From Asterias amurensis (taxonomy: Eukaryota): DNA of 64,000 bases. Positions 6,474-58,758 of this stretch are shown piece after piece. Position numbers and translations under genes: made by a program. Positions within the stretch are counted from its first letter, which is position 1. Each line of letters begins with the position of its first letter. The DNA lies in assembly GCF_032118995.1 (NCBI RefSeq), contig NC_092661.1, forward strand, positions 18,173,185 through 18,237,184, written 5' to 3'. Below the pieces are notes generated by a model. It searched no databases, had not been told where the DNA came from, and saw only the letters and a list, made by a program, of their open reading frames with translations.

Positions 6474-6839
6474 ATAGTAATTGGGGTGGCTGACTAAACT
6501 CTTCCGAAATGGAGGCGCAATGACCTTGACGATCTCTGAGTATGTGATGGGGCTGGTGCTAAGACTAACCTTACCAGAATAAAATTAGGAAATTTATACA
6601 CACAATCAGGACAACACTAAACATTATTTTGTTCCTATGTTTCTTGTTTATTTAATGATCAGATTTACAGTTAATGTTGAAAAGAGTGGATGCAGAATAA
6701 ATCACAATTAATACAGATTAAATTAAACAGAACTTTGTTTATTTGTGTCCGAGTTTGTATTTGAAGTAATAGTACAAAATTACTAGTTAATAAAAAAATC
6801 CTTAATTTATGAAATAGATAAATGCCAAAATGTTTGCTC

Positions 6840-9060
6840 AAAAAGGCCCATTTTTAAATTTTGGGCCAAAAATAGAATGGTCCGAAATCACTCAAAAGGA
6901 AGAACAAGTTTAACCCCTTGCGGTTTTTTTCACTAAAAATTTTTGCTCAAAAAGGCCCATTTTTAAAATTTGACCCCAAACTAGAGTGGTCCAAAATCAC
7001 TCAAAAGAACAAGTTTAACCCCTTGCAGTTTTTTTCGCTCAAAATCTTGGCACAAAAAGGCCCATTTTTAAAATTTGGGCCAAAAATAGAATGGTCCGAA
7101 ATCACTCAAAAGAACAAGTTTAACCCCTTGCAGTTTTTTTCACTCAAAATCTTGGCTCAAAAAGGCCCTTTTTTAAAATTTGGGCCAAAAATAGAATGGT
7201 CCGAATCACTCGAAAGAACAAGTTAAACCCCTTGCAGTTTTTTTCACTCAAAATCTTGGCTCAAAAAGGCCCATTTTTAAAATTTGGGCCAAAAATAGAA
7301 TGGTCCGAAATCACTCGAAAGAACAAGTTTAACCCCTTGCAGTTTTTTTCGCTCAAAATCTTGGCTCAAAAAGGCCCGTTTTTAAAATTTGGCCCCAAAA
7401 ATAGAATGGTCCGAAATCACTCAAAAGAACAAGTTTAACCCCTTGCAGTTTTTTTCACTCAAAATCTTGGCTCAAAAAGGCCCATTTTTAAAATTTGGGC
7501 CAAAAATAGAATGGTCCCAAATCAGTCGAAAGAACAAGTTTAACCCCTTGCAGTTTTTTTCACTCAAAATCTTGGCTCAAAAAGGCCCATTTTTAAAATT
7601 TGACCCCAAACTAGAGTGGTCCGAAATCACTCAAAAGAACAAGTTTAACCCCTTGCAGTTTTTTTCACTCAAAATCTTGGCTCAAAAAGGCCCATTTTTA
7701 AAATTTGGGCCAAAAAAAAAATGGTCCGAAATCACTCGAAAGAACAAGTTTAACCCCTTGCAGTTTTTTTCGCTCAAAATCTTGGCTCAAAAAGGCCCAT
7801 TTTTAAAATTTGGCCCCAAAAATAGAATGGTCCGAAATCACTCAAAAGAACAAGTTTAACCCCTTGCAGTTTTTTTCACTCAAAATCTTCGCTCAAAAAG
7901 GCCCATTTTTAAAATTTGGGCCAAAAATAGAATGGTCCCAAATCAGTCGAAAGAACAAGTTTAACCCCTTGCAGTTTTTTTCGCACAAAATCTTGGCTCA
8001 AAAAGGCCCATTTTTAAAATTTGACCCCAAACTAGAGTGGTCCGAGAAATCACTCAAAAGAACAAGTTTAACCCCTTGCAGTTTTTTTCACTCAAAATCT
8101 TGGCACAAAAAGGCCCATTTTTAAAATTTGACCCCAAACTAGAGTGGTCCGAAATCACTCAAAAGAACAAGTTTAACCCCTTGCAGTTTTTTTCGCTCAA
8201 AATCTTGGCTCAAAAAGGCCCATTTTTAAAAATTTTGCCCCAAAAATAGAATGGTCCGAAATCACTCGAAAGAACAAGTTTAACCCCTTGCAGTTTTTTT
8301 CGCTCAAAATCTTGGCTCAAAAAGGCCCATTTTTAAAATTTGGGCCAAAAATAGAATGGTCCCAAATCACTCGAAAGAACAAGTTTAACCCCTTGCAGTT
8401 TTTTTCACTCAAAATCTTGGCACAAAAAGGCCCATTTTTAAAATTTGACCCCAAACTAGAGTGGTCCGAAATCACTCAAAAGAACAAGTTTAACCCCTTG
8501 CAGTTTTTTTCACTCAAAATCTTGGCTCAAAAAGGCCCATTTTTAAAATTGTGGCCAAAAATAGAATGGTCCGAAATCACTCAAAAGAACAAGTTTAACC
8601 CCTTGCAGTTTTTTTTGCACAAAATCTTGGCTCAAAAAAGCCCGTTTTTAAAATTTGGCCCCAAAAATAGAATGGTCCGAAATCACTCGAAAGAACAAGT
8701 TTAACCCCTTGCAGTTTTTTTCGCTCAAAATCTTGGCACAAAAAGGCCCATTTTTAAAATTTGACCCCAAACTAGAGTGGTCCGAAATCACTCAAAAGAA
8801 CAAGTTTAACCCCTTGCAGTTTTTTTTCACTCAAAATCTTGACTCAAAAAGGCCCATTTTTAAAATTTTGGCCAAAAATAGAATGGTCCGAAATCACTCA
8901 AAAGAACAAGTTTTGGCCCTTGCAGTTTTTTTCGCTCAAAATCTTGGCTCAAAAAGGCCCATTTTTAAAATGTGGCCCAAAAATAGAATGGTCCGAAATC
9001 ACTCAAAAGAACAAGTTTATCCCCTTGCAGTTTTTTTGCTCCAATTCTTGGCTCAAAAAG
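6840..9060. repeat. Satellite array with a 105-bp unit, in about 21 tandem copies. Two alternating unit subtypes are present (..TTTGGGCCAAAAATAGAATGG.. and ..TTTGACCCCAAACTAGAGTGG..).
   Basis: The motif AAAGGCCCATTTTTAAAATTTG recurs with a 105-bp period, for example at 6951 and 7056. Copies are near-identical. The 102-158 aa ORFs the track lists between 6918 and 9131 are periodic translations of this array. Confidence 0.9.
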
Positions 9061-9999
9061 GTCCAACTTTGGCAAAAAATATAACAGAACGGTTCAAAAA
9101 TGCTGAATCCAACAATACAAGTTATTGTTAACTAAAAGTTTTTGTAACCAAACATTTTAGCAAAATGTTTCCCCACAAACAGGTTTAGTATCACCTAAAT
9201 TCAATTAGCTTCAATTACTCCAAGACAAGTATTCCTTAGAAGCTGCATATGTGGTGCTTACCACTGTGTTGACAAGGCTGCGTTCTCTAGGATTGCTTTA
9301 CAGATTGATGTCCAGTTAATCAATGCTCAACATGGTTTCATGAGTGGGTTTCTGTAACAGCAGACAAAAATACAAGAAAAATGAATACCAGGTTAATTCT
9401 GATTCTGAATAATAACGTAATACATGTCACTCACAGCAAAACCCAATGTCATGTTCCTGCTTACCATGGGAGTACATGCTTACAGCCTGCTGTAAATGTG
9501 TCAATCTATGACCTGAACACACAAACAAGTACTGCTACAACTATCCCACAAACCAGAATAACAGAATCTGAAAGCACTTTAAATAATAACTGAAGCAGAT
9601 TCTAATTGAAAGACCCACTTTGGTCCCAAGGGTTCAATTCCTACTGTGTACAGTTTTAAGATTTCCTTTGAACATTCTAATGATTGATTGAAATTAAAAC
9701 CAAAGAACAAGAAAAATAGTTGGTGGTTGAGTGGAATGAAGCTCATGATTGTCGATATTATCCTGGGTTGTGGGGTCAACTCACATCATGTGTTATTTAT
9801 GCTGTATTGCCTAATGGTTAATTTTCTTACACCTGGGGTTCACACAGGCAGACGATATTAGCTAATAAAGAAGAGTTGGAGGTGCTGAGTATTAAAATAA
9901 ATTGTGACTGTGGCTCTTTGCTTTTCCGTTAATAATAATAATAACATCAAAGTCTCATATAGCACACGTATCTACCAAACAAGGTACTCGAGGCGCTGA

Positions 10000-11030
10000 G
10001 TATATACAAACTTTTTCTTTTTCATTGCCTGTGTCTATTCGAAGGATTTTAATAAATGAAGATGCAAGTTTCTTAAGAAGAGTTGGTGGTCCAGTGGAAG
10101 GACTCATTGACTCCAGATGCTATGGTCTTGGGTTCAATTCCCACTGTGTGATTTTACAAAGTAACTTTTTCTTTTTCATTGACTTTGTCCATTCTAAGGG
10201 TTTTAATAAACGTCAGATGCAAGTTTCTTAAGAAGAGTTGGTGGTCCAGTGGAAGGACTCATTGACTCCAGATGCTATGGTCTTGGGTTCAATTCCCACT
10301 GTGTGATTTTACCAAGTAACTTTTTCTTTTTCATTGACTTTGTCCATTCTAAGGGTTTTAATAAACGTCAGATGCAAGTTCTTAAGAAGAGTTGGTGGTC
10401 CAGTGGAAGGACTCATTGACTTTAGGCACTATGGTCCTGGGTTCATTTCCCCTTGTGTTTTCTTTTTCTTTTCAGTGCATGTGTCCATTCTAAGGGTTTT
10501 AATTAATGTCAGATGCAAGTTTCTTAAGAGGAGTTTGTGGTCCAGTGGAAGGACTCAGTGACTCCAGATGCTGTGGTCCTGGGTTCAATTCCCACTCTGT
10601 TCCTTTTCTTTTTCATTGCCTGTGTCCATTTTAAGGGTTTTAATTGATGTCAGATGAAAGTTACTTAAGAGGAGTTTGTGGTCCAGTGGAAGGACTCAGT
10701 GACTCTGGGCGCTATGGTCCTGGGTTCAATTCCCACTCTGTTCCTTTTCTTTTTCATTACCTGTGTCCATTCTAAGGGTTTTAATTAACGTCAGATGCAA
10801 GTTTCTTAAGAGGAGTTTGTGGTCCAGTGGAAGGACTCACTTACTCCAGATGCTGTGGTCCTGGGTTCGATTCCCACTCTGTTCCTTTTCTTTTTCATTG
10901 CCTGTGTCCATTCTAAGGGTTTTAATTAACGTCAGATGCAAGTTTCTTAAGAGGAGTTGGTGGTCCAGTGGAAGGACTCAGTGACTCCGGGCGCTATGGT
11001 CCTGGGTTCAATTCCCACAGTGTGTAACTC
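10000..11030. repeat. Satellite array with a unit of about 157 bp, in about 6.5 copies. Each unit carries a tRNA-like B-box/T-arm motif (GGTCCAGTGGAAGGACTCA ... GGGTTCAATTCCCAC).
   Basis: The direct repeat GTGGTCCAGTGGAAGGACTCATTGACTCCAGATGCTATGGTCTTGGGTTCAATTCCCACTGTGTG recurs at 10085, 10240, 10390, 10540, 10690, 10830 and 10960. Confidence 0.85.
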
Positions 11031-11394: not shown

Positions 11395-11995
11395 GGGTGA
11401 AAAGACTGCAGACTTTGGATGGGGACTAGGTAGTGTCTTCTATGGGGAAGTTTGTACTTGTTAAATTTCACTCATTCAGCTCAATAGTAAGTAATGGGAT
11501 AAGATGACTGGATATTGGATGGGGTTTGGGTAGTGTCTTCTAAGGGGAAGTTTGTACTTGGTAAATTTCACTCATTCAGCTCAATAGTAAGTAATGGGAT
11601 GAAGTGACTGGACATTGGATGAGGTTTGGGTAGTGTCTTCTAAGGGGAAGTTTGTACTTGGTAAATTTCACTCATTCAGCTCAATAGTAAGTAATGGGAT
11701 GAAGTGACTGGACATTGGATGAGGTTTGGGTAGTGTCTTCTAAGGGGAAGTTTGTACTTGGTAAATTTCACTCATTCAGCTCAATAGTAAGTAATGGGAT
11801 GAAGTGACTGGACATTGGATGGGGTTTGGGTAGTGTCTTCTAAGGGGAAGTTTGTACTTGGTAAATTTCACTCATTCAGTTCAATAGTAAGTAATGGGAT
11901 GAAGTGACTGGATATTGGATGGGGTTTTGGGTAGTGTCTTCTAAGGGGAAGTTTGTACTTGGATGTGGACTAGGTAGTGTTTTCTAAGGGTTAGG
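11395..11995. repeat. Satellite array with a 100-bp unit, in about 5.5 copies.
   Basis: GGGTTTGGGTAGTGTCTTCTAAGGGGAAGTTTGTACTTGGTAAATTTCACTCATTCAGCTCAATAGTAAGTAATGGGATGAAGTGACTGGACATTGGATG repeats with a 100-bp period (at 11521, 11621, 11721 and 11821). Confidence 0.85.
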
Positions 11996-24600: not shown

Positions 24601-27600
24601 CTTGCGAGCCCAAAAACTTGCGGGTACGAAGCCTGCTTGCATACATTTGTCTTTGGGTTTGAAAGTCCTACTCTGCAACCTGGGGGATCTTGATGGTTTT
24701 ATCATCATTTTCTTATGAATTTGATCCAAGTAATAAAACACAATTAACTTTTTGATTAATTATTTTTATTCTATTTTTTATTTATTTATTTAATTATTTT
24801 ACTTTATTTTTCCATAATTATTATCGATTATTTTCATTTCCATCCCAACCAGGCACATTTCTTACCAGATCTTTATCAGTGACGCTTCCAGTCATATTAG
24901 CTGTGTCCCAGATCCTAACAGATTTGTCTTGACTCCCTGTAGCAAGCAACAAATCGTCACTCATCGTCTCTCCAAAGTCTGCTGATAAGACAGGCCCGAT
25001 GTGGCCCTGTAACAAGCACCATTCCACGGTAGGGTAGAGACGAAGTACCTTCAGAAAATACCAAGAAGATTTGTTCAATAGAAAGAAAATCAAACATACA
25101 GTTTATACAAAGAAGTAGTCTGTAACATTTTTGCTCAAATATAATAATAATAATAATGATTACATTTATATAGCGCTTTATACCAAAAATAAGTTTCTAA
25201 GCGCTATTAAATATAGCTTCTCATCATACCGATAAGGGACCAAACAAATTTGCTCCTTTTAGACTTGGTTTGTAGGATTTGAAACTTTGCATGGTGGAAA
25301 TACAATATGGAAATGTTTGCGGTAACACCATGTTACTGCAAACCTTTCCAGACTTGGTTTGGTCACATCAATTTGTTTTGAATTTAATTGGGAAAAGCAC
25401 AGCCAGACTCCAACACAAAATATTAAGAAGGTTACTAACTAATATTTGATCACAAATAAAGTCAAACTATATGTCATTGATCGAGCTGTGTGTTAGCCTA
25501 ATAAGGCTTCACAAAAATATCCATCACCAAGGCATTATAACAAAATTAGGATTGCCAAAAATACACGAGTTACACTATTTAACATACCTTTAAATCACTG
25601 TCCCCAACCAAATTAGCAATGAACTCCAAGTTATGAGAGATGACATTATTGGCTCCCTGGCTGTGTAGGGACAATTTGTGGCCCTCAGTTTTGGTCTTGT
25701 TCCCCTTAACAACCCAGCGATATGTGCCGTTTGGAAGAACCCCTAGCAGTTTGCGGCCATCTTGGGAGAAGCGTAGACTGGTGTTGTTCAACTGCCCTTT
25801 AAGATTTTCCGTTTCAAAATGTTTGGTGTCCTATGAATGGGGAAATTGGGAAAAAATTAGATTACATTGAAAACTATTTAAGAAAATATGAAAAAGCTCT
25901 TGATTATTGTCATTACAGAAATAGTGGCCTACAGTAGAATTCTGTTCAGTAAAATATTAAGTTTGCCTTAATATCAAATAGCATTTTTAAGCCACAACAA
26001 AATTTTGAAATTTTTGCATTAATGTTTGGTTCCATCATAGCAATGAAGTAAAGATTAAAAGTGTTGGTAGTTCTTGAGCAAAAAGCGAGGTTCGTCCCAC
26101 ATTCCTAATGTACAATCTTAAACTGAACAAAATGCATAAAACCTTTAAGGACAGCTCATGCGTAAACAAAAAGGCAGTTTAAGTGCAGTATCAGTTTATT
26201 TTCAGCTTTAGCTTTTCAGCAACGAAGGCGATTGCCTCCATGCCCCTTGGTCATTGCCTTGGTGCCCTTAAAATGCTCCAGTACAATCTTTACATAGGGT
26301 GCCCTTTACCAAGGAGAAATGCCTTGGCGCCTTGCCCTTTCAAAAAATAGAGCATACAGGTCTGCTATTAGGATTTAATATTTCAGTGTGTGGAGGATCT
26401 TGTTACTTACTGTCTCCTTGGCAATGTCCCATAGATAAACATCCTTGTAAGCAATGGCTACCATCTTACCACTTGGCATGAAGGTGACTGCTTTTGGGCG
26501 ACACTGTAATTCAAGAAAAATGCATATTAAAACAACATCCAGATATAGCTGCAAGGCAACTCATTCTCTGGGAACCCTCATATGGAGTAGCCTCTCGAGG
26601 TGGTCAGACGCTAACCTACGTGGACCAATTGCGTTGTCATACTGAGCTAACCACTGCAGCTGAGATCAGAACAGCCATGGGAGATTATGAATGGCGTGCT
26701 CCTGTTGCAGTCCGACAAGAGTCGACTTGATGATGATGACATTATAACAAAGGGTGATTTAAGGATTTGCAGGTTTAAAAAATTTTGGTGTATTGTCAGT
26801 AGAACATTCATGCTTCATACTTTAAACCCAGAAATGTTTTACTTAATTAATAAAATAAATTAATTCATATGCAGTTTAACAACGCCCCACCCCCATTATT
26901 TATTAAAATTCTGAAACAAAATTATGTTTTCGAAGTTTGTTTTGTTGTGTGTCCTACAATAAAATTGAAACCATTTTTCATGCATATGAGCGCAGCGAAG
27001 GAGCATGAAATTGTAAATTCAGTTCTACAAAACAACTATCGGACAATAGCAAAAACAAATTAAAAAAAAAACCAACAAAAAAGAAGCTAAATCCAAGCAG
27101 TTCTCTATTATTACAATAATAATAATAAGACATTTGTAAAGCGCCTAATGCAAAAGCCTCTAAGTGCATTAAAGAAACAATAAAATAAACAATTAGAGAA
27201 AGATACAAGATACAAATAGGCAAATTACAAAAAAAGAAGCTTTAAACAAATGAGTTTTCTACAAGGACTTAAAACATTGTAAAGTATTAGCTTGGCGAAT
27301 ATGCACAGGAAGACTATTCCAAAGAAACAAACTCTTTCAAATGAAAATCATGGATGTGATTAATGAGTGGATATAGCAGTAGAGGATTGTTAAGAACTAA
27401 GGAGGGATTAAGTGGAGGGGGGGGGGAGGCCATTACGTACCTTGAGTTCCTTTCTTTGGATCAGCTTTCCATCGTGAGTGCCATAGACATAGAGACGACC
27501 AAAAGTCACTATGTAGATATGTCTGTTAGTCTTTGGTATAAAGACAGTCACTTGGGTGTCGATCTCCAAAGGAATATTAACAGAAAATTTACCTAAAGGA

Positions 27601-30600
27601 ACAAACAAACCATTGAATGAAAACTGTGTAGTTTTGTACTTATTTCTTTCTTTTGTTGCTTTTGTATTTCAAAGTGCTTTGTATAGAATTTGTAAAAAAC
27701 ACTTTATAAGTAAACTTATATGATTATTATATTGTGCATAATGATGGCCTTATTTTCGAACCAAACCAGATCTTCTTCAGAGGCATAAACAAGTACAAAA
27801 AAATACATATCCATTTATAGAAAAAAGAGGGGAAAAGGATTTAAAGGCAGTGGACACTATTGGTAATTACTCAAAATATCTATTAGCATAATACCTTTCT
27901 TGGTGACGAGTAATGGGGAGAGGTTGATGGTATAAAACATTGTGAGAAACGGCTCCCTCTGAAGTGCCATAGTTTTCGAGAAAGTAATTTTCCATGAATT
28001 TGATTTCGAGACCTCAGGTTTAGAACTTGAGGCCTCAAAATCAACCATCTAATCGCACACAACTTTGTGTGACAAGGGTGTTTTTTTTTCATTATTATCT
28101 CGCAAATTCAATGACCGATTGAGCTCAAATTTTCACAGGTTTGTTATTTTATGCATATGTTGAAATACACCAACTGTGAAGGCTAGTTTTTGACAATTAC
28201 CAATAGTGTCCACTGCCTTTAAGAGACGGATCCAGAAAAAAAGGGAAAATTATAGCCAATCAAAGTTTATATTTCAGAAACAATTGGTGGCTATGAACCA
28301 ATAGGAGTGGTGAGGACAAAGGATGTTCAGTATGTTCTATTATTATAATATGCAATATAAAATCTAACCTACATGTGAGCCAACATACCTTTAGCATATC
28401 CTCCCTGTCCGAGTCCCAAGAGTTTTACTCCAGTCTTTTCTAGAACAGCCAACCAATAACAATGACCTGCAAACTCCATCTTGATTGGCTCACCTTCAAC
28501 TGTTACTTCTAGGGCTCCACTTGCAACCTGAAATAACACAACCTCTTTTATTAAAATGAGCGTACTGAATGAGTCGTTGAAAGTTAAACGACGTGGTTAT
28601 GACTATGACTGACAGGCTATTTGTTTTCCCAATAAGCCATTTGCGAGTAAGATTTGAATAATGTCTGGTACATTGACTTGCTTAGTCGCAATGTATTGCT
28701 TACATTTGGATTCCTCAGACTATAGAGACAGTTGCTGTGTCAAATGGTTCGGCGCAAGCTTTTTGTATAGCAACCTCCAGATGAGCAAACCCTGGTGTAC
28801 CATTGAGCCATACACATCCATTCAAAATTGTGTGTGGGTGTAACACATGGGTGTAACTAAGCAAAAGTTTGCTCCTAATCATGTGTCATAGTAACTGTCT
28901 TGATAGTCTGAGGATAGGAATTGAAATTTAAGTGGTAACTTGTGATCAAGCACATCATTGTACCAGACAATATTAAAATCTTACACGCAAATAGCTTAAA
29001 GATATACGAGTTAACATAATTGATAATGTCTACTTGCATGCTAGTTCAAAGCAATGCAGATGAATCAATTGTAGAATATTATTTTTGCAACACATTAGAT
29101 CCTGTTGAAATGTTTTGTGATCTTTAGGCTGCTCTTAAATGAAAAGAGTAGAGCATTCATTTAAATGGAGTGTCCAAAGAAACACTCCTTTTGAAAAGAT
29201 CAATAATTTTAAGTAAAAATGGAGCATGATTTCATGAATATAAGATTCAGTGTTTCCTTGTTCACATTTTAAACTTTGCTTTTCCCTAATACTTTCAAAC
29301 ACTCTCTGTTTTATGATATTGTGTAGTTTCTTACCCGCCAAACTCTGATGGTGTTATCTTGGCAGAAAGTTGCCAAATACTTGCAATTCTTGGAGAATTG
29401 ACACAGGGCAACAGGAGCTGTATGGGTCAATGTCATGATCTCTGCCCCGTGACACTGCTCCTTGGACAAGTCTAACCAAGTAAACACTGGGGACAAATTG
29501 GGATAGATAACAAAATGAGAAAATAGAATTAGCTGCTGCAAACAACTTACCAACCAAGAGGACCGAAGGTATAAATGCAAAAATAGTGGAATGGCCTGAA
29601 GTTGACCCCTGCAGAGTCTTCTCCAGAGAAAGACTCTGCTAGGGTCAAAACAGTGTTCGAAACGTCAGGCCATTAACTATTTTTTGATTTGGACAACTTA
29701 CTGACAGTGAAGAGAATCTATTACTTTTGTATTGTAAATAAAAAGAAATAATAATAATTAAGGCGTAAATAAAAAGTAATAATAATAATAAAGATGTTTA
29801 ATGAGCACAAAACTAGGTGTTCAAGGCGCAGTAAAAAAAACAAAAAAACACACAAAAAAACTCACTGTTTTTTCCATGTACAGTCAGATAGTCCTTGGCA
29901 TATGCAGAGCAAGACGATGAATCAGGTTCGTTTAATGCTTGTTGACAAATCAGCTGTGGGTATTTCTGGATCATAGAAGCATTGGAACGTACCATGCGGT
30001 AAAAGTCCTTCAATTTACCGCCAAACTCACACTTATCAGCAGCCTGCAGAATACAGAAAGCAAATCTAGTTGTTTGAAACTTTTCTAAAACACTCAAAGA
30101 ATACCCATATACACCGCAACGTGTTAGTACTGTATACTAAGTACTTTCCTGAGCTCTGTGAAAATAACCACAGGCATATTACTCAGGTGGCATATTACTC
30201 ACAGGTATATTATTTATCCCTGATGCAACATTCCATCTACTTAATTGTTTCTTTTATGGGTAATGTTAGCACAAGAAAATGTTAAACTATTAAAAGTTTA
30301 CAACTTTGAGAAGCATGAATTGTAACATGGAGAAAACTGTTGAGTACTGTTTTAAAATATAGGCATAGATGTAAATCAATGAATGTCGATGGAATACGCT
30401 CCAGAAGGCAAGCATATTTTAACAATAATACTCCCAAACTATTAAATTAAAAAAAGCGAATAAAGAAATCACAAACATTCTGTACTGCTACAGGAACCAA
30501 GCAATATAATTTTGCATAAATAGCAGACACAGGTTTTGTCTATCATTTGTTGGACATAAGGAAGCTGCAAAATTAACCCATCTGCATAAGCTGTATTGAC

Positions 30601-33600
30601 TCATTTCACCTGACGTCATCATCAGAATAATCTGTGATGCGGCATACTGGTCACTGTGCGTTATTCAGTGAAGTGCGCATTTTAGGCGATGCTGCGTTTA
30701 CACGTAAACGCATTGCCAACCAAAATGGTGAGCGTGGCACAGTCGCCGCGTGTGACATGCGTGCAAGAGGTCAATATGGAAAGTACTTACCTCAGCCAAC
30801 TCTAGAAGAAGTTTATAAATACGTCCAGTCCTGCACTTAGCCTCCAGCCATGGTATTGAACACATTTCCTGTAGTATGAGTTAGACAGCATAAGGGACAA
30901 TATTTAAAAAACAATATTCCTCCATGAAAACTCAAGCACCCCTTGCTGAAACCTGCAGGTGATGAAGATCTAGTCAGCTGTAGACATTGTGGCCTTGACT
31001 ATTCAACAAGAAAACAGTTTGAAAGAAACAACAACAGCTACTAAAACTGCCACATCATTGTACAGGGTATAAATAAGTTAATACTGTAAATAAAAGACCA
31101 TTTAAGTTTTAAGTTTTATAAAGCAAAATAAAGAAGAAAAACCCCAAACGATAGCCACTAAAAGACAAGTCATACTTTGCATCATTGTACATGATTTAAT
31201 TCATTTAAATCCTTTATACAAATAGAAAATTAAGACTTGTCTTTTGGTTTACACTTGTATTGTAATATCACTTCATTAAATGCGTTAAAAATAACCCTTT
31301 CCTTTTTAAATCATGCATCTAAATAAAAAATAGAACAAACAGGACAACATCAGAGAGATTTCTCACCCTATCTGCATCTTCCCACAAATTTCCACGGATG
31401 ATGTGGCGTGGTAGCTCAGTTAGTTTCCTAAGGTTCCAGTGTATCTTCTTAGGAGACTTTGAGGTCTTGAGACTATCAATGTCTGCCACAGAGTTATGAC
31501 GTGTTGCTGATCCTGAACTTATCACCAAGGGTTGAGACTGAACACCACGATGGGTCACTGCCATGTTACCTGAACCTTTCTCCCGGTAGGGCTTTGGGGT
31601 ATCAGCCCACCTGTAAGAAGTAAAGACCACTTATTAAGAGACTGAACACCACGGTGGGTCACTGCCATGTTACCTGAACCTTTCTCCCGGTAGGGCTTTG
31701 GGGTATTAGCCCACCTGTAAGAAGTAACAATATTTATTAGCCCTGCATGTCAAAACAGTCATGATGATTTGCAGTCATTAATAACTGCCACAGTTGCGGT
31801 GCAAACCCCATAGTTGTTTTTTTGAAGGACTAGTCTGTTCATCTGCTTTGATTAGGCCATGTTTGAATGGGTAGCCAAGGCTACTATATAAGTTGGTTGT
31901 GTGGTTGCCCAGGTTGTACACTCCCAAGGAAGCTGAGAATGATTAAAGGAATGTTATTGGCCCAATGGCACTAATGTAAAGCGCATGGAAATGGTTATTT
32001 TGAAATACACTATAAGAACTTGTTATTATTATTACGTTATGATACGTTGAAGTATAGGATGTCCTTTGCAACAGTCGTAGCCATAGCCAAAGCTGCCAAT
32101 TTGGATACGGCTTGAGATCGAAAGACAAAGGATGATAAAGGTTTCTTTAGTTGTCGCTAAATGCCTACCTTCCAAGGAAGTACATAGCAAGAGCTTGGTG
32201 TAATAGTGCTGCTGAATCACTCAGATATAGCTGCCGAGCTTTCTCATAGAAGAGTCTGTGATACCAACGGTAGACCACAACATTATCCACACCTCCTTCC
32301 ACTAAGTAGTCACCTTTAGACGGGAAATACAAGAACAATCCTTAAAGACACTGAACACTATTTATTGGTAATTACTCAAAATGATTGTTAACATCTTTAC
32401 TTGGTAACGAGCAACCGAGAGCTGTTGATAGCATAAAACATTGTGAGGAACGGCTCCCTCTGAAGTTTTGGACCTTAAAGTTCTGGAACAAAGAATTCTG
32501 GGTCCGAAAGCCCAGATTGAACTGGTTATAAAAGAATTTTGAAAAGCACTATTTCTGATAATGCGATTCAAGTTAAAGCAAAATTTCATGAAGCAAGTCA
32601 AATAGATCATTTAACTCACCTAAGTCTAGTCGCAGTCTAGTCCACAGCAGAGGAGGCAATCGTCTGATTGGTGGGATATGAAACTCAAAGACGTCATCCA
32701 GGACTACGTCATCACATGACAGCACGTCAATCAGTTCATTGGCTGACAGCCCTGTGGCAGATGCAGTAAGGTAGCCCAAAGCATGGCGTACAAATATCTC
32801 ACCGTGCTTCACCTCTAGCCTGTGGAAAATAAAACAAGCAATGATGGTGAAATCATCTTCACATAGAAGTAACAACTTACATTGTATAATGGTAAAAGAA
32901 GAAAAAACTATCAACCTCTCGTTGAGCATGTTCGATGGACATTTGTAACTGTCAAAATGCAATTTTATGGTAATTTTTTAAAGAAAACAACCTAAAACAG
33001 GGATATTGAACAGTTTACTTTTGCTTTATCACTTACAAACAAAAGCAGGTTTTTATAGGGTGGTCGCAAAACATTGATAATTCTTTAGAACAACAAAACC
33101 AAAAAAAAAGACATACTCGTTGAAAAGCTGTTCAATAAGTCCTGGTGTGCTATCAGCAAGTTTGCATTCTTTCAGCGGTGTGTACGACTTCCACTTCTTT
33201 GCAATGTCACAAGCCAAACGCATGAAGAGGGGTGTTGGAGTTTCGTCATGGTGGGCATGCAGCACAATTTGCTTCTGGTCCGGGGTTAGACTCCTGCCTG
33301 ATTTACTTAACATTAAATCAATGATATTATGCTGGTCTTGCTCATCAAGTCTCACAATCTCAAAGTAGGAATCCTCATTCTACAGATTAGACAGAAGCAA
33401 ACATAACAAAGGAACAGCATTACTAGGCAATCTAGGGCATTGGATTCAAGTTCTGCAGCCAATTTTACGTAACGCTAGGATTAATCGAGTAACCCGTCCT
33501 AACTTAGGATGGGTTCAATGGATACGGAACTTAACTTGTCCCAAGTCCTAAGATTAATCCCAAGTTAGGAAGCGTTTGGTGAAATCGACGGCTGGTGCTG

Positions 33601-53000: not shown

Positions 53001-56000
53001 AACCAATGCTCTTTACAGATGCTTAACATTTAAATGTTAGCTATAATTGGTAACATCTCTGACATACACAAGTACATCTTATGAACATTCCGATGATGAT
53101 GTAGACAAGATGAAACACTTTTCTGATATTTGTTCACATCATTATAAACTGTAATATCTATGGCCACATTTTATCACTGAATACTAAATTTGTAGTGAAC
53201 AAACTGTGATTAAAAGTTGATTTTGCTTTGTTTCTCACTTTTTACATGCTTTTAGTGTTGATGACCAGCCGGTTAGCTATCCCGCAAAAAGCTTATTCTG
53301 CTTCAAAGGGACTAAACTGCAACTAGATATATCACATATAGGATTTGAGGCATTGCATGGTGAGGTATCAATATATATTTGGTTTGCGGTAACACCATGT
53401 GTGTATCTACTTGCCAGGTAGAGTTTGTTCAGTCTCCTGACGATGACTAGAGCAAGCTAGTCGAAACGTTGAGACCAACCCAAGAACTGACTCCGCGGTA
53501 GTACAGTTAATACGATCCTATAAGCTAAAGTAGTAGTCCAGTCTATTTCTATACCATCCGCCTTGGTAATAGTTAATAAGCAGGACAGTTCTTTTCAGAA
53601 CTGAGAAGTCTCCCTAACACCCGAACAATCTACTCCGCGGTAGTAGAATTAAGCAAGACAGTTCTCTAAGAACAAACTCTACCTGGCAAGTAGATACACA
53701 CATGGTGTTACCGCAAACCAAATATATACATAGATATATCACCTTTAACAAATCTACAAAAGTTTTTTATTTTTCCCCTCTAGGTCTGGGTATTACCCGC
53801 AATATGCGGGGATATGACAACAAAATATGTTACCCTCAATCCTTTAAAATTAGTTTTAAAAGTCAAAAGGAAATTTGTTTTAGGTAGGGAAACCTTAAGA
53901 ACCTAAAAAGCGAATTTGTAAACAAAGAGACAAGAAATGGGAACACCAAGGGAAGGGGCACTGAACTATAAGACTATCAACCCGGCTGGTACCGTAGGTC
54001 TTATTCAAGATGTTCCACAAGTGGCTGAGAGAAATACAAATAGATGTTGGACAACAAGAGAATGACACATGGAAAAGAAAAGGTTGAGATACATGAAGTA
54101 GGAAATACAGATATATCCTTGAGAGATAATGATAGATGCAGATGAAGAAACAGAAAAAGTGAAAAGGAAAACAAACATCAGTGGAAGGGGAACATTAAAG
54201 TTATGAGGCGGGAGTCTGCGAGAAGGCCTTCAGTAAGTTTAGATTCCCTCTTGGAGTTCATTGTGTAAATATTTATTGTTATCCCTCAATCCTACACTTT
54301 TTAGCTCCACCTCAACTTACCAACAATAGGCTTTTGGCATGCTGAACACCTGCGTGCAAACTTCTCCCCGTAGCAATCAGCACAGTAGCGTTTCTCATCC
54401 CGCAGTGTGAAGCGTTGATTCCACAGGGACTTTGAGCAGCCTGAGCAGCAGAAACAATCCCTGTGCCATGGCTTCTTCTGATAGGAGAGACCTCCACTTG
54501 AGATGATCTGAGAGAAAGTGGTAGGTAACTCATCAATTTAAAATTGTTCCTATAACTAATTAGCTGTGGCCAATTAGTGGTCGGTCCAGCACATCATTCC
54601 TGAGTTGCGATGGTTTAGTTAATAAAAAGTGGATTCGAATTTGAATCCTGACCTATCTGGTCTTGGCACTTGATCAGCATGCAGTCTTAACAATGGACCA
54701 CTGGCCAAATGCTAGTTAAAATGCATGAAGACCAGTCAAAATTCTCTCCAACTGATCTGACTGGTATGGTAAGTACAGTATTAAAAAAGCATCCGTATTT
54801 AATATAACAAACGACATGTAAAAAAGCTAGCAGACTAATAAAATGACAGGCTAACTCTGCTCAATTTCATATAGAGCTGCTTAGCACAAACATTTGCTTA
54901 GCATGAAATTTCTTCCTTGATAAAAACAGGATTACCAACTAAATTTCCATTTGTTGCACATTGCTTGTTACTGGTATTCAGCTATGGTTTGCTTATCGTG
55001 AAAATCATGTGGAAATTTGGTTGGTAATCCTGTTTTTATCAAGGAAGAAATTTCATGCTAAGCAAATTTTTGTTCTTAGCAGCTCTATGAAATTGGGCCC
55101 TGGTCACTCTAGTTGGTCACAGAAAAGGTTATGGGCAAACCCTGTTAATCCTTCTTAATGCAAGGCAACAAATAATTAGCTACAAGTGAGGCTCTCTCAG
55201 ACCAGACACTAGGTGGCAGCAGATAAACCAGTTAGTTTTACTTTGATGTGTTTCAGTGATTTAAACATGTCCTACCTCTCCACAGCCAGTGCACTTAATA
55301 CCAAAGGTGTCCTCATAGCATTTTGTGCAGTAGACTGAAGACTCCTTGGGTACAAAGCTGCCTGTACCAATCTGTTTCTCACAGACTTTACAACGGAAGC
55401 ACTTGTCATGCCATTCTTTGCCTTGGAAGCCGAGTCTTGTCACACCTGGTTCAGAAAAATAAGGGTAATGTCAGTCTTGAACAAGAAATTAACATTCAGG
55501 AAACTTATGTAGGCCTAACACATGCAGAACATGAGAATTACAGGGGATAGAATTTGTACACTTTCTTATTACAATTTCTCTCCAGGCTTCTTAGTTAAAG
55601 ACAATGGACACTATTGGTAATTGTCAAAGACCAGTCTTCTCACTTGGTGTATCTCAACATCTGCATAAAATAACAAACCTGTGAAAATTTTATCTTAATT
55701 GGTCGTCGGAGTTGCGAGATAACTATGAAAGACAAAAACACCCTTGTCACACGCTTTCATATGCTTGATTTCGAGACCTCAAATTCTTAACTTGAGGTCT
55801 TTAAATCAAACTCATGGAAAATCACTTCTTTCTCGAAAACTAAGTAACTTCAGAGGGAGCCGTTTCTCACAATGTTTTATACTACCAACCTCTCCCCATT
55901 ACTCGTTAGCAAGTGAGGTTTTACGCTGATAACTATTTTGAGTAATTACCAATAGTGTCAACTGCCTTTAAAATGTTGGGAATGGTACCAAAAGACACAA

Positions 56001-58758
56001 ATGAAGTTTATGGACTATCTGGAATGTTAACAACTATTTTGATTTAACTTTTTTAAGACCGAAAAAAAAAAAAAACTTTTAAAAGAATTCAAAGATCGGA
56101 AGAGTAAAAAAAAAAAAATCTTCTTTAGAATTGCCATAATCAAATTTGCATTGATTGGTATTCCATGCTAATATTAATAATTAAACAAGAATAATTTCCA
56201 TTTATTAATGGTTACAGCCAGTGAGAGTAAAAGGCAGGACGAGGGGCCATACCAGGTTTGAGGATCTCCCCACAGGCCTGGCATTTGTTGGCCAGATGTT
56301 TCTCATAGCAGCTAGAGCAGCACATCTTGCTGTCCCAGTTACCGAAAGCTTTATCGGCCAGGGATTCCTTGCAGAAATGGCACGTGTAACGAGCCTCAAA
56401 GCAGGTTTCATGGTAATGCTGATTCTTGAAGGAAAGATCCTATCAAACAGAAAGAAAGAAACAAATTTCATCAATATGGAAAGGTTTGCGGTAACACCAT
56501 GTTATGACTATGACTATGAGTTGGGGTGGTTCTGAAACGAACCGTTGGTTTAACTCAACGTTTCAATCAGTAATTTCATCAACATCAAGATAATGTAAGT
56601 GTTCCATTCGACATTTATTTTACAAAGGTAATGCTATGATATCTTGTAGTTTTGTTGACGGCCCAAAAATATGTGTGTATATAGCTGACATTACCTGTAA
56701 CTTATTCAGATAAGAAATCATTTATTACACTTTTGTTGACGCAAATAAATAGTAAGTGGCCTGACGTTTTGACTTTAGCAGAGTCTTTCTCCAAGGCTAA
56801 ATGACAACACAACAAACATGAACAGGTAACTAAGTATGTACATTTTATTTGTTTTTTTTTGTGTCCTTCTTTTTACAATTTCACAAGCAAAAACACCTTA
56901 AGTTCCCTGATCAGCCAGTTGAAGTATTACTATACAGAGCTCTTACATTTTGACCACTTTTTTGTTTCAATCAAAGTTGAAGGAACACGTTGCCTTGGAT
57001 CGGTCGAGTTGGTCTTTGAAAAGTGTTTGTAACCGTTTTTTTTTATAAAATGCATATGGTTATAAAGATGCTTTAAAAGTAGAATACAATGATCCACACA
57101 CATTTGCCTCGAAATTGCGTGGTTTTCCTTTTACTTTGCGAACTAACACGGTCGTAACTAACACGGTCGGCCATTTATGGGAGTCAAAATTTTGACTCCC
57201 ATAAATGGCCGACTGTGTTTGTCGACGAGGTAAAAGGAAAACCACGCAATTCGAGTGATACTTGGATCATTATATTCTACTTTTAAAATATCTTTCTAAT
57301 CATATGCATTTATTAACAAACGGTTGCAAATGCTTTTCAAAGACCAGCTCGACCGATCCAAGGCAACCTTTTCCTTTAATGTACTCTGCCGCTGTGTACC
57401 ATTAAGCTCATCAGGAAATCTATAACTATAACTCACAATCACATCATCTGATTTGTCTTGGGGGATGGAAGCTTAAAATAGAGTTTGTTGGGTCGCTTTT
57501 ACAGTTTTTAGTATAGTTACTACTGATTTCCCATGGTATATCCACTGTCAAGGAAGGCAGTACTGTAGACTACATGTTCTTTTATTTAATATGAACAATA
57601 ACCGTCTGTGCGCCTTAGGGATAGAATTATGGATTGGTGACGTAAGCATCGATGAAAGAGACAAGTTTGAACTGCACTCCGTGGACCTGGCACGCTTTCC
57701 ATTGAATAATGGGATTTTTGGTTTTGTTTTACAAATGTAATTACTTCCTCAGTAACCAATACAATTAGAACTTTGACCATGGGGGGATTTTCTTCTTTTA
57801 TTTTTTGGAGGGAGATTAAAATTCAGTTGCACAAGTGGTGCTTTTTTACTCCAAATCAAACTAAAAGTATTTCCTTGTTTCATACTAAAACTTTAATGAG
57901 CTCTCATATTTGTTATCAGTCGCAGAAGGTTAGTTCTAAACCTATAGAATTGTTTTTAACTTTGACTCCATGTCAAGGTGAGTTAAAATATTTCTTTCAC
58001 ATATTCCAAAATATTTCTGTATCATTGTGAACCCTCTGCAGCTATGATTCTTGGGGGAAAATAAATGCCGATTGTCATTGAATGCAAGAAAAATAACATT
58101 TAGTTTACTACATCTTGGTGTATACACACTTTCACTCATTCTCATTGTTCCTTTTATATTTTAAATAAACCTACATCAATAAACTATCAAGTGATATCCA
58201 GAAACACTATTTAAGGTTGTCAAAATTGTCATGTATAATTTCAAAAGTTTGAAACTTTTCTATGTTTTCTCTGTATGAGTTCCATAGAGTTATATATAAA
58301 AACTAGAGGGCGCATGAGTGATGCTTCGTGCACAAACGCCACAGGACCGCAAGATGACAAGCGCGTCATTCTGCACGCGCAATGAATAAGAAATACACAT
58401 TTGAGTTTTTTTTATTGAACGCTCAAGCGATGCTGTTTGTTCAACTTACAAAATGGCCACACAAACACAGCTGTGAGATAGCTGTTTTGTCAACTTAGAA
58501 AATGGCCGCCTGCTTGCATACTGGGGCGCGTATTACAGGCCAGTGCGCACTCTAGTTCTTATATATAACTCTATGATGAGTTCTCACCTTAGAATCATGT
58601 CCAATCTTCTGATTGCATTCGGCACAAGTGTTGGCAAACAGGTCATTGTAGCATGGGATACAGTGAGGGTTATTCTCCCTTAGGATGTAACTCATTCCAC
58701 TCAGTGACTTGTCACAGTGGAAGCAGCAGAAGTGCCCGGGATGGAAAGACCCGTCCAT
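49880..58758 (-). CDS. Gene span of a four-and-a-half LIM domains protein (FHL family). It has 5 coding exons and encodes 287 aa.
   Basis: The spliced translation has an N-terminal half LIM domain plus four full LIM domains: CCFHCDKSL...CIPCYNDLFANTCAECNQKIGHDSK, YHETCFEARYTCHFCKESL...CSSCYEKHLANKCQACGE, WHDKCFRCKVCEKQIGTGSFVPKESSVYCTKCYEDTFGIKCTGCGE, WHRDCFCCSGCSKSLWNQRFTLRDEKRYCADCYGEKFARRCSACQKPI and WHNSCFQCQKCQVSLVNECFVMDGQDIVCPNCAQG. This collinear arrangement matches vertebrate FHL1/2/3. All junctions are AG/GT and the phases are consistent. Confidence 0.85.
51276..51652 (-). mobile_element. MITE family A copy
   Basis: It runs from GTTAAAGACACTGGACACTATTGGTAATTG to GTAATTACCAAAGGTGTACCTTCCCTTTAA. 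Confidence 0.75.
52696..52728. repeat. (GAAT)n microsatellite
   Basis: cgatgaatgaatgaatgaatgaatgaactg. Confidence 0.9.
53340..53720. mobile_element. Palindromic MITE family F (TIR GGATTTGAGGCATTGCATGGTGAGGTATCAATATATATTTGGTTTGCGGTAACACCATGTGTGTATCTACTTGCCAGGTAGAGTTTGTTC)
   Basis: The terminal inverted repeats are about 90 bp long and flank a central segment. This copy is complete. Confidence 0.75.
54321..54507 (-). CDS. FHL exon 4
   Basis: The acceptor is ccactttctctcag. The translation is IISSGGLSYQKKPWHRDCFCCSGCSKSLWNQRFTLRDEKRYCADCYGEKFARRCSACQKPIV. The donor is GTTG|gtaagt. Confidence 0.8.
54856..55100. mobile_element. MITE family C copy, in FHL intron 3
   Basis: It runs from CTCAATTTCATATAGAGCTGCTTAGCAC to GTTCTTAGCAGCTCTATGAAATTGGGCCC. 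Confidence 0.75.
55276..55445 (-). CDS. FHL exon 3
   Basis: The acceptor is atttttctgaaccag. The translation is GVTRLGFQGKEWHDKCFRCKVCEKQIGTGSFVPKESSVYCTKCYEDTFGIKCTGCGE. The donor is GGAGAG|gtagga. Confidence 0.8.
55594..55972 (-). mobile_element. MITE family A copy, in FHL intron 2
   Basis: It runs from GTTAAAGACAATGGACACTATTGGTAATTG to GTAATTACCAATAGTGTCAACTGCCTTTAA. Confidence 0.75.
56253..56439 (-). CDS. FHL exon 2
   Basis: The acceptor is tttctgtttgatag. The translation is DLSFKNQHYHETCFEARYTCHFCKESLADKAFGNWDSKMCCSSCYEKHLANKCQACGEILKP. The donor is CCTG|gtatgg. Confidence 0.8.
56976..57379. mobile_element. Palindromic MITE family E copy, in FHL intron 1. Its centre is a near-perfect hairpin GGCCATTTATGGGAGTCAAAATTTTGACTCCCATAAATGGCC.
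   Basis: It runs from AAAGTTGAAGGAACACGTTGCCTTGGATCGGTCGAG to CTCGACCGATCCAAGGCAACCTTTTCCTTTAA. Confidence 0.75.
58283..58575. mobile_element. MITE (TIR GAGTTATATATAARAACTAGAGKGCGCA) in FHL intron 1, starting about 12 bp after the exon 1 donor
   Basis: GAGTTATATATAAAAACTAGAGGGCGCATGAGTG at 58283-58316 pairs in reverse complement with CAGTGCGCACTCTAGTTCTTATATATAACTC at 58541-58571. Confidence 0.6.
58588..58758 (-). CDS. FHL exon 1 (coding part). The exon begins at an acceptor about 30 nt upstream of the ATG, so at least one noncoding exon lies upstream.
   Basis: The ATG at 58758-58756 sits in the strong context CGCGCCATGG. The translation is MDGSFHPGHFCCFHCDKSLSGMSYILRENNPHCIPCYNDLFANTCAECNQKIGHDSK. 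The donor is CTAAG|gtgaga. The upstream acceptor is catcctacag, near 58789. Confidence 0.8.

What the first reader, a model, noticed from the sequence alone, without database searches (positions are those of the whole stretch)
31533..31727. Intronic tandem duplication creates a decoy copy of the exon 13 acceptor and exon start, giving a frameshift with a premature stop if used
A 90-bp segment holding the real acceptor (cttcttacag|GTGGGCTGATACC...) and the first 76 nt of NWD exon 13 is duplicated 104 bp upstream on the transcript, with 97% identity and a 1-nt indel. If the upstream acceptor copy were spliced, the read would run through TTAATAAG into the real exon out of frame and hit a stop within about 35 codons. 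This could be a recent neutral duplication, or a source of NMD-targeted alternative isoforms.
Basis: seen in the sequence. Interest (0 to 1): 0.5.

Follow-up and report, generated by a model that had tools for sequence, protein, structure and literature searches.

The report
Young duplication copies a splice acceptor
A recent 104-base local duplication in a coral-like NWD1/2 immune-type gene has put a second, equally good copy of one splice acceptor inside the intron; using it would break the reading frame, but this is an ordinary kind of mutation and nothing shows that the copy is used.

Summary
The repeat is real in this assembly. Two 90-nt copies (31534-31623 and 31638-31727) lie 104 nt apart and match at 88/90 positions. 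There is no indel inside the 90 nt.

On the minus strand each copy carries 13 intron bases (ttacttcttacag) and the first 77 bases of exon 13 of an NWD1/2-like gene (DUF4062, P-loop, HTH_NWD1, WD40). Only the downstream acceptor (exon 31610->31367) gives the conserved protein ...YFLGR|WADTPKPY.... The upstream acceptor (first base 31714) adds 104 nt, shifts the frame and reaches TGA at 31557-31555.

Both acceptors are identical from -13 to +77. Each has a TAAT branch-point-like motif at -23/-24, so the upstream copy is a credible competitor.

Loci from three other coral sources keep the same intron position with a single copy, so the duplication is specific to this lineage. It is young: the copies differ at 2/90 positions, against dS 0.36 to the closest relative. 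The gene is under purifying selection there (dN/dS 0.10).

No RNA data or second assembly of this species could be reached, so neither usage, NMD targeting nor an assembly artefact could be tested.

Verdict: an ordinary recent small duplication across an intron-exon boundary. Low interest.

The parts
32169..32313 (-). Exon 12 of the NWD1/2-like gene (145 nt). It encodes (G)DYLVEGGVDNVVVYRWYHRLFYEKARQLYLSDSAALLHQALAMYFLG and ends ...GGAAG|gtaggc.
   Evidence: Coordinates. About 89% identical to L001:245-438.
31611..32168 (-). Intron 12. It is 558 nt when the real acceptor is used and 454 nt if the decoy is used. The homologous intron in L001 is about 171 nt.
31736..31740 (-). Branch-point-like CTAAT. 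Its A is at 31737, 23 nt upstream of the decoy exon start.
   Evidence: Motif scan; coordinates. Motif match only; no functional evidence.
31638..31727 (-). Upstream (decoy) copy: ttacttcttacag followed by 77 nt identical in order to the start of exon 13. The decoy AG is at 31716-31715 and the first 'exon' base is 31714.
   Evidence: It aligns to L001:574-663 at 91%.
31668..31676 (-). 5' splice-site-like CAG|GTAACA inside the decoy copy. With the decoy AG it would define a 41-nt out-of-frame mini-exon (31714->31674).
   Evidence: The motif is absent in L001, which has CTGGCAATA.
31624..31637 (-). 14-nt spacer TTAATAAGTGGTCT between the copies. It matches the L001 intron (TCAATAAATGGTCT) at 12/14 and holds the branch-point-like TTAAT (A at 31634, position -24) of the real acceptor.
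31534..31623 (-). Downstream copy: the real acceptor (AG at 31612-31611) and the first 77 nt of exon 13.
31367..31610 (-). Exon 13 (244 nt). It encodes (R)WADTPKPYREKGSGNMAVTHRGVQSQPLVISSGSATRHNSVADIDSLKTSKSPKKIHWNLRKLTELPRHIIRGNLWEDADR. The donor is AGG|gtgaga.
   Evidence: The protein is 94% identical to P0001.
31555..31557 (-). TGA stop reached in the shifted frame, whether the decoy acceptor is read through or the 41-nt mini-exon is included.
30791..30868 (-). Exon 14 (78 nt, EMCSIPWLEAKCRTGRIYKLLLELAE). Its protein sequence is identical to L001, which shows the gene downstream of the duplication is intact and constrained.

Best explanation
The feature is a real, recent, lineage-specific local duplication of about 104 bp (a 90-nt near-perfect copy and a 14-nt spacer). 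It straddles the intron 12 / exon 13 boundary of an otherwise intact, selectively constrained NWD1/2-like gene.

Shown: the event lengthened intron 12 and left 77 nt of former exon sequence, with a full acceptor unit (TAAT branch-point-like motif, pyrimidine tract, cAG), inside the intron. Only the downstream acceptor at 31611/31610 gives the conserved protein, so it makes the productive mRNA.

Inferred: the upstream copy is a by-product, not an evolved element. Because it is identical from -13 to +77 and has its own branch-point-like motif, it probably competes and takes some share of transcripts. Those transcripts would carry +104 nt (or a 41-nt mini-exon) and a stop 188 nt before the next exon junction. 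They would most likely be degraded by NMD. The net effect would be neutral to mildly hypomorphic, not regulatory.
For: - The repeat is real and far beyond chance.
- Gene identity and intactness: DUF4062, HTH_NWD1 and WD40 hits; Walker A GCGGCGKTS at about 36184; an NWD2-like best named hit.
- Exons 12-15 are collinear with L001, and the exon 14 protein is identical to L001.
- dN/dS is 0.10 over 129 codons of exons 12 and 13, with dS 0.36.
- The exon 12/13 junction YFLGR|WADTPKPY matches the homologue P0006, YFQGKWSQTPKPY.
- The same intron position occurs with a single copy in L001, L002/L003 and L004, with no local repeat.
- The copies differ at 2/90 positions, whereas each differs from L001 at 8-10/90. 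The duplication therefore happened well after that split, at roughly 6% of its depth.
- The consequences of using the decoy are computed.
- The acceptors have 12 vs 13 pyrimidines in -20..-1, and a branch-point-like A at -23 vs -24.
- No RNA structure distinguishes the two sites (z = 0.45).
- The window resolves a 2.2-kb, 92%-identical satellite and has no N, which suggests a long-read-quality assembly.
Against: - No reads, second assembly or transcript of this species could be reached. The duplication rests on one assembly, and use of the decoy is unobserved.
- The 14 nt in front of the two copies differ at about 5 positions and 1 indel, while the next 90 nt differ at 2. A simple tandem duplication does not predict this. 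It fits a more complex event, or the joining of two divergent haplotype ends.
- A strongly used decoy would be hard to reconcile with purifying selection on the gene if the allele is fixed.
Confidence: 0.62

Rival explanations
1. Assembly artefact. The true genome has one copy. Two contig or haplotype ends that overlap by about 104 nt were joined end to end instead of merged, so the two 'copies' are really two alleles.
For: - The two mismatches (A/G, C/T) and the divergent 14 nt in front of the copies (TAATAAatattg vs TAATAAgtggtct) could be allelic differences between haplotypes.
- A period of about 100 nt is typical of overlap or gap-closing errors (my own knowledge).
- No independent sequence of this species was found to confirm the duplication.
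Against: - The window has no N, and it resolves long 92-96%-identical satellite arrays, which suggests long-read contiguity.
- No other duplication of about 100 nt in two copies exists in the 64 kb. The only other two-copy tandems have 31-nt and 36-nt units.
- The two differences follow the outgroup in an orderly way: the upstream copy carries the L001 state at both.
Confidence: 0.2
2. Functional alternative 3' splice site. The duplicated acceptor is used in a regulated way to make a PTC-containing isoform, which tunes NWD1/2-like expression through NMD (regulated unproductive splicing).
For: - The decoy has a complete acceptor unit, identical to the real one from -13 to +77.
- The stop lies 188 nt upstream of the next exon junction, which fits the usual rule for NMD (the rule is from my own knowledge).
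Against: - The decoy is not conserved. It is absent from L001, L002/L003 and L004.
- It is very young (2/90 differences).
- There is no sign of selection on the decoy copy, no distinguishing RNA structure and no expression data.
Confidence: 0.05
3. Null or strongly hypomorphic allele. The upstream acceptor is closer to the exon-12 donor and would win most of the time, so this haplotype largely inactivates the gene (the start of pseudogenisation, or a deleterious heterozygous allele).
For: - The two acceptors are intrinsically equal.
- With short introns, pairing of a donor with the nearest good acceptor is common (intron definition as reviewed in PMC3488318).
- A BRCA1 partial-exon duplication that duplicated acceptor and donor sites gave transcripts containing the duplicated segment and a premature stop (PMC11839443).
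Against: - All neighbouring exons are intact, and the exon 14 protein is identical to L001.
- dN/dS of 0.10 shows long-term constraint.
- In the F7 IVS7 case, identical duplicated splice sites stay silent beside the authentic one (PMC1557585). Those are 5' sites, however.
Confidence: 0.12

Closest known systems
Human F7 intron 7 37-bp minisatellite spanning the exon 7 / IVS7 boundary (Borensztajn et al. 2006, PMC1557585)
   Same: A tandem repeat whose first unit spans an exon-intron boundary places sequence-identical copies of an authentic splice site inside the intron.
   Different: In F7 the duplicated sites are 5' splice sites in a multi-copy VNTR, and experiments showed them to be functional but silent. 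Here a 3' splice site is present in two copies, the decoy lies upstream of the real site, and nothing has been tested.
Intron creation or remodelling by short intragenic tandem duplication (Rogers 1989 model; Hellsten et al. 2011, PMC3265369; Lehmann et al. 2010, PMC2891723)
   Same: A short tandem duplication inside a gene turns former coding sequence into intron while the mRNA can stay unchanged if the right pair of sites is used.
   Different: Those cases create a new intron, or a new intron position, from an AG|GT proto-splice site in an exon. Here an existing intron is only lengthened by 104 nt and its position is unchanged. The Rogers-type rescue path (GT at 31673 to the TTCAG in the real copy) would need a purine-rich, poor acceptor and is unlikely.
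Pathogenic small duplications of splice sites in human genes (e.g. BRCA1 partial exon 10 duplication, PMC11839443)
   Same: A duplication that includes an acceptor yields transcripts containing the duplicated segment and a premature stop.
   Different: Those are disease alleles with RNA evidence. This is a genome-assembly observation in a cnidarian, with no RNA evidence.
Regulated unproductive splicing (AS-NMD 'poison' sites, e.g. in SR protein genes; my own knowledge)
   Same: An alternative splice choice introduces a premature stop upstream of an exon junction.
   Different: Known poison sites are deeply conserved and regulated. This decoy is absent from all three related sources examined.

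Membership tests
NWD1/NWD2-like (NACHT and WD repeat) gene | N-terminal DUF4062 domain | tested here: met
   PF13271, E = 1.9e-6, 28.4 bits (cut-off 24.7), on the translation of exons 1-3. Homologues with PF13271 are named NWD2-like.
NWD1/NWD2-like (NACHT and WD repeat) gene | P-loop NTPase (NACHT) with a Walker A motif | tested here: inconclusive
   The Walker A motif GCGGCGKTS is on the minus strand at about 36184. The 34-aa exon gives only weak P-loop hits (NB-ARC 17.6 bits, ATPase_2 17.9 bits, both below cut-off). A full NACHT model was not scored on a spliced protein.
NWD1/NWD2-like (NACHT and WD repeat) gene | NWD1-like winged helix-turn-helix domain | tested here: met
   PF25469, E = 7.3e-15, 55.4 bits (cut-off 27), over exons 11-12. 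Homologues P0002-P0005 carry PF25469.
NWD1/NWD2-like (NACHT and WD repeat) gene | C-terminal WD40 repeats | tested here: met
   PF00400 at 27.4 bits (cut-off 27) in ORF 29314-29664 and 26.2 bits in ORF 24824-25102.
Simple tandem duplication | Two head-to-tail copies of one unit, the first continuous with the ancestral left flank and the second with the right flank | tested here: inconclusive
   90 of the 104 nt match at 98%. The first 14 nt of the unit match only about 8/14, with 1 indel. It is the downstream 14 nt that resemble the outgroup (12/14). The pattern fits a duplication followed by a second small event, or a duplicative insertion with filler.
Simple tandem duplication | Absent (single copy) in outgroups | tested here: met
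   L001, L002/L003 and L004 each have a single copy.
Functional alternative 3' splice site / AS-NMD switch | Acceptor consensus with pyrimidine tract and branch point | tested here: met
   The two sites are identical from -13 to +77. The decoy has CTAAT with its A at -23 and 12/20 pyrimidines. This is motif-level evidence only; MaxEntScan was not available.
Functional alternative 3' splice site / AS-NMD switch | Junction reads showing that the site is used | not testable with these tools
   No RNA data were available. No spliced protein from a close relative is in the database.
Functional alternative 3' splice site / AS-NMD switch | Evolutionary conservation of the alternative site | tested here: not met
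   The decoy is absent from the loci of all three related sources.
Assembly artefact | Single copy in reads or in an independent assembly of the same species | not testable with these tools
   No sequence of the same species was found: the best relative is 94% identical at the protein level, exact look-ups failed and the metagenome scans gave 0 hits.

The most novel reading that the evidence does not exclude
The duplicated acceptor is fixed in this species and is used in a condition-dependent way, for example on immune or stress challenge. It would shunt transcripts of an NLR-like NWD1/2 gene into NMD. That would make it a very young, duplication-born unproductive-splicing switch in a cnidarian, and a natural test of how the spliceosome chooses between two identical 3' splice sites.
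Probability: 0.04. Interest if true: 0.5.

Novelty: new member of a known kind. Interest (0 to 1): 0.15.

Why it matters
If real, this is a clean natural example of a 3' splice site duplicated with its branch-point region and 77 nt of exon context. It could be used to ask which of two identical acceptors a cnidarian spliceosome picks. It also shows how small duplications move exon sequence into introns. For annotation it is a practical trap, because gene predictors may choose the upstream acceptor and call a truncated or frameshifted NWD model. Beyond that it is an ordinary, probably neutral or mildly deleterious, young mutation. It touches no open question.

Tried and rejected
- Independent copies of the locus. 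Two metagenome scans, with a 25-mer at the acceptor and a 28-mer at the exon-13 donor, gave 0 hits. Exact look-ups of the decoy-frame ORF (37 aa) and the real-exon ORF (103 aa) found nothing on record. Two protein searches found no same-species protein or transcript. Artefact, polymorphism and usage therefore stay untested.
- Dispersed repeat or transposon. The 36-nt core occurs only twice in the window, and intron 12 has no other copy in the window. No terminal inverted repeats were found in the intron. Rejected.
- RNA structure masking one acceptor. A 271-nt fold gave z = 0.45 against shuffles. Rejected.
- In-frame rescue paths. The options were decoy AG read-through (+104), the 41-nt mini-exon (+41), and a 41-nt exon joined to exon 14 (-203). 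All shift the frame. The Rogers-type removal of exactly 104 nt would need the purine-rich ...GGGAGAAAGGTTCAG as acceptor, in competition with the strong real acceptor 41 nt upstream of it. Judged unlikely.
- Pseudogene in this genome. Rejected for the local region: exons 12-15 are open, collinear and conserved, and dN/dS is 0.10. The full gene model was not assembled.
- MaxEntScan scoring. The model tables were not available offline, so only pyrimidine counts and motif positions are reported.
- Literature on duplicated 3' splice sites. Two full-text searches gave only analogies and no direct precedent.

Full report
**1. The observation**

Reading the minus strand of 31200-32100 shows ttacttcttacag|GTGGGCT... 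twice. The repeat finder reports two 90-nt copies, 31534-31623 and 31638-31727, with 104-nt spacing. TRF reports period 104, 1.9 copies, 97% matches and 0% indels.

A base-by-base comparison gives 88/90 identity. The mismatches are 31707 A vs 31603 G and 31654 C vs 31550 T. Each copy holds 13 intron bases and 77 exon bases. A 36-nt core occurs exactly twice in the window, against 0.00 expected from shuffles.

It appears only if the alignment is extended into the preceding 14 nt (cTAATAAatattg- vs tTAATAAgtggtct), where similarity is about 8/14.

**2. The gene**

Minus-strand ORF fragments from about 41.8 kb down to about 20.9 kb carry these features:
- DUF4062 (exons 1-3), HTH_NWD1 (exons 11-12) and WD40 repeats.
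- A Walker A motif, GCGGCGKTS, at about 36184.

The best named homologues are "NACHT and WD repeat domain-containing protein 2-like" proteins and a Pocillopora meandrina protein with the NWD1/2 winged-helix domain. The window therefore most likely comes from a stony-coral-like cnidarian. The species itself is not in the searchable collections.

**3. Which acceptor is real**

Exon 12 (32313-32169) ends ...TAC TTC CTT GGA AG|gtaggc. Joined to the downstream acceptor (exon 31610-31367), the reading is ...YFLGR WADTPKPYREKGSGNMAVTHRGVQSQPLVISSG...NLWEDADR, followed by the donor AGG|gtgaga.

A distant homologue (P0006, which reads continuously across the junction) has YFQGKWSQTPKPY at the same place. 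The L001 contig and two more distant coral sources have the intron at the same position.

Joined to the upstream acceptor (first base 31714), the mRNA gains 104 nt. It reads RWANTPKPYREKGSGNMAVTHRGVQSLNKWSLLLTGGLIPQSPTGRKVQVTWQ*, with TGA at 31557-31555, 188 nt before the exon-13 donor.

Each copy also contains a 5'-site-like CAG|GTAACA 41 nt into the exon part. A 41-nt mini-exon from the decoy copy shifts the frame to the same TGA. No combination of these sites other than the normal one is in frame.

**4. Comparison of the two acceptors**

| Feature | Decoy (upstream) | Real (downstream) |
|---|---|---|
| Positions -13 to +77 | identical | identical |
| Positions -20..-14 | AATATTG | GTGGTCT |
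| Pyrimidines in -20..-1 | 12 | 13 |
| Branch-point-like motif | CTAAT, A at -23 | TTAAT, A at -24 |

The local pre-mRNA has no significant structure (z = 0.45). Intrinsically the two sites are about equal. MaxEntScan could not be run.

**5. Related sequences**

- L001 is a 1768-bp Logan contig (SRR26532981), found through protein P0001, which is 94% identical. It covers exons 12-15 and is collinear with the window. It has one copy of the acceptor and exon start, and no direct repeat.
- L002/L003 (ENA ERZ26692694) and L004 (Pocillopora meandrina GCA_942486045.1) are more distant. They also have a single ag|GTGGGCGCGGGAAGC and no local repeat.

The duplication is therefore specific to the window's lineage.

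Each copy differs from L001 at 8 (upstream) or 10 (downstream) of 90 positions, but the copies differ from each other at only 2. At both of those sites the upstream copy keeps the L001 state. The real exon carries the derived G (Asn->Asp) and T (synonymous).

Over 129 codons of exons 12 and 13, dS is 0.36 and dN/dS is 0.10. The exon 14 protein is identical to L001, with two synonymous changes. The gene is thus under purifying selection and locally intact. The duplication is young, at roughly 6% of the divergence from L001, with a wide error because it rests on two substitutions. Those two differences could also be pre-existing allelic differences.

**6. Anatomy of the event**

Homology to L001 runs without a break through 12 of the 14 spacer nucleotides into the downstream copy (L001:562-903 = 31635-31294). 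The upstream copy matches only from TTACTT onward (L001:574-663 = 31727-31638).

The sequence left of the decoy (catgcagggctaat) is again orthologous to L001 (catacggggcttat). The 8-14 nt directly in front of the decoy (aaatattg) match neither the spacer nor L001 well, although TAATAA is shared.

Two descriptions fit:
- a 104-nt tandem duplication followed by a small complex change in the upstream unit;
- a duplicative insertion of the 90 nt with a few filler bases about 14 nt upstream of its source, with loss of about 15-19 nt that L001 still has.

I could not resolve this without a closer outgroup.

**7. Artefact?**

No reads or second assembly of this species could be reached:
- Two protein searches gave no same-species hit.
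- Two exact ORF look-ups found nothing.
- Two metagenome scans gave 0 hits.

The divergent 14 nt and the two SNP-like differences would also fit two haplotype ends joined end to end.

Against an artefact:
- The window has no N.
- It resolves kilobase satellites of 92-96% identity.
- It contains no other two-copy duplication of about 100 nt. The only others have a 31-nt and a 36-nt unit.

I put the artefact at about 0.2.

**8. How it most likely works**

Shown:
- The structure of the duplication.
- The frame consequences of each acceptor.
- The equality of the two acceptor signals at motif level.
- The absence of the duplication in relatives.
- The selective constraint on the gene.

Inferred:
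- The downstream acceptor makes the productive mRNA.
- The upstream copy is a passive by-product that probably captures some transcripts.
- Those transcripts would carry a stop well upstream of an exon junction and would be removed by NMD. The NMD rule and the presence of NMD factors in cnidarians are from my own knowledge.

How large that share is cannot be predicted. Intron definition favours the nearer, upstream acceptor (review PMC3488318). The F7 IVS7 example shows that identical duplicated sites can stay completely silent, though those are 5' sites (PMC1557585).

**9. Comparison with what is known**

Short tandem duplications inside genes that convert exon sequence to intron are established (the Rogers model; Hellsten 2011 PMC3265369; Lehmann 2010 PMC2891723). 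Duplicated acceptors that give PTC transcripts are known in human disease alleles (PMC11839443).

This case is a new instance of that kind, at a 3' splice site in a cnidarian NWD1/2-like gene. It fails the conservation test expected of a regulated AS-NMD switch.

**10. Verdict**

This is an ordinary young mutation of low interest (0.15). Its practical value is as an annotation trap and as a possible natural test of 3' splice-site choice.

Noticed in passing
window 6826-9065, 10013-11018, 11411-11962: There are three separate minisatellite or satellite arrays: a 105-nt unit x 21 copies at 92% identity, 141/423-nt units, and a 100-nt unit x 5.5 copies at 96%. The first gives long spurious '+' ORFs with the repeated peptide ...KNKFNPLQFFSLKILAQKGPFLKFGPKIEWSEIT....
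   Followed up: no
window 54304-58818, minus strand: A second gene lies upstream of the NWD-like gene. At least three exons encode LIM domains with FHL2/3-type N-terminal LIM hits (PF00412 up to 48.6 bits; PF25076 at 44.4 bits). It is a four-and-a-half-LIM-like gene.
   Followed up: partly
window 31564-31572 and 31668-31676, minus strand: A 5' splice-site-like CAG|GTAACA sits 41 nt inside exon 13 and inside its duplicate. The relative L001 has CTGGCAATA there, so the motif arose in this lineage before the duplication.
   Followed up: partly
window about 31855-32130 (intron 12): Intron 12 is 558 nt here and about 171 nt in L001. Besides the 104-nt duplication, about 280 nt have no counterpart in L001. 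This stretch has no other copy in the window and no terminal inverted repeats.
   Followed up: partly
L004 10458-10610 and 11229-11435 (Pocillopora meandrina GCA_942486045.1): The Pocillopora locus homologous to exons 12, 13 and 15 shows in-frame stops in tblastn (GHVV*KWYHRLF, VSD*PLVLSN, ELVP*LCLNEPD). The annotated protein P0002 stops at ...AADGHVV. This copy may be a pseudogene or a truncated paralogue.
   Followed up: no
window 29734-29793 and 61919-61990: Two other small two-copy tandem duplications are present: a 31-nt unit at 93% identity just downstream of exon 15, and a 36-nt unit at 100%. Small local duplications therefore recur in this genome region.
   Followed up: no
L002 vs L003 (ENA ERZ26692694, contigs ctg14304 and ctg14355): Two contigs of one assembly, each over 400 kb, carry the same NWD-like locus with identical called proteins and the same neighbouring 7TM GPCR gene. 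Coordinates are offset by about 8-24 bp. They are probably two haplotypes, or a recent segmental duplication.
   Followed up: no
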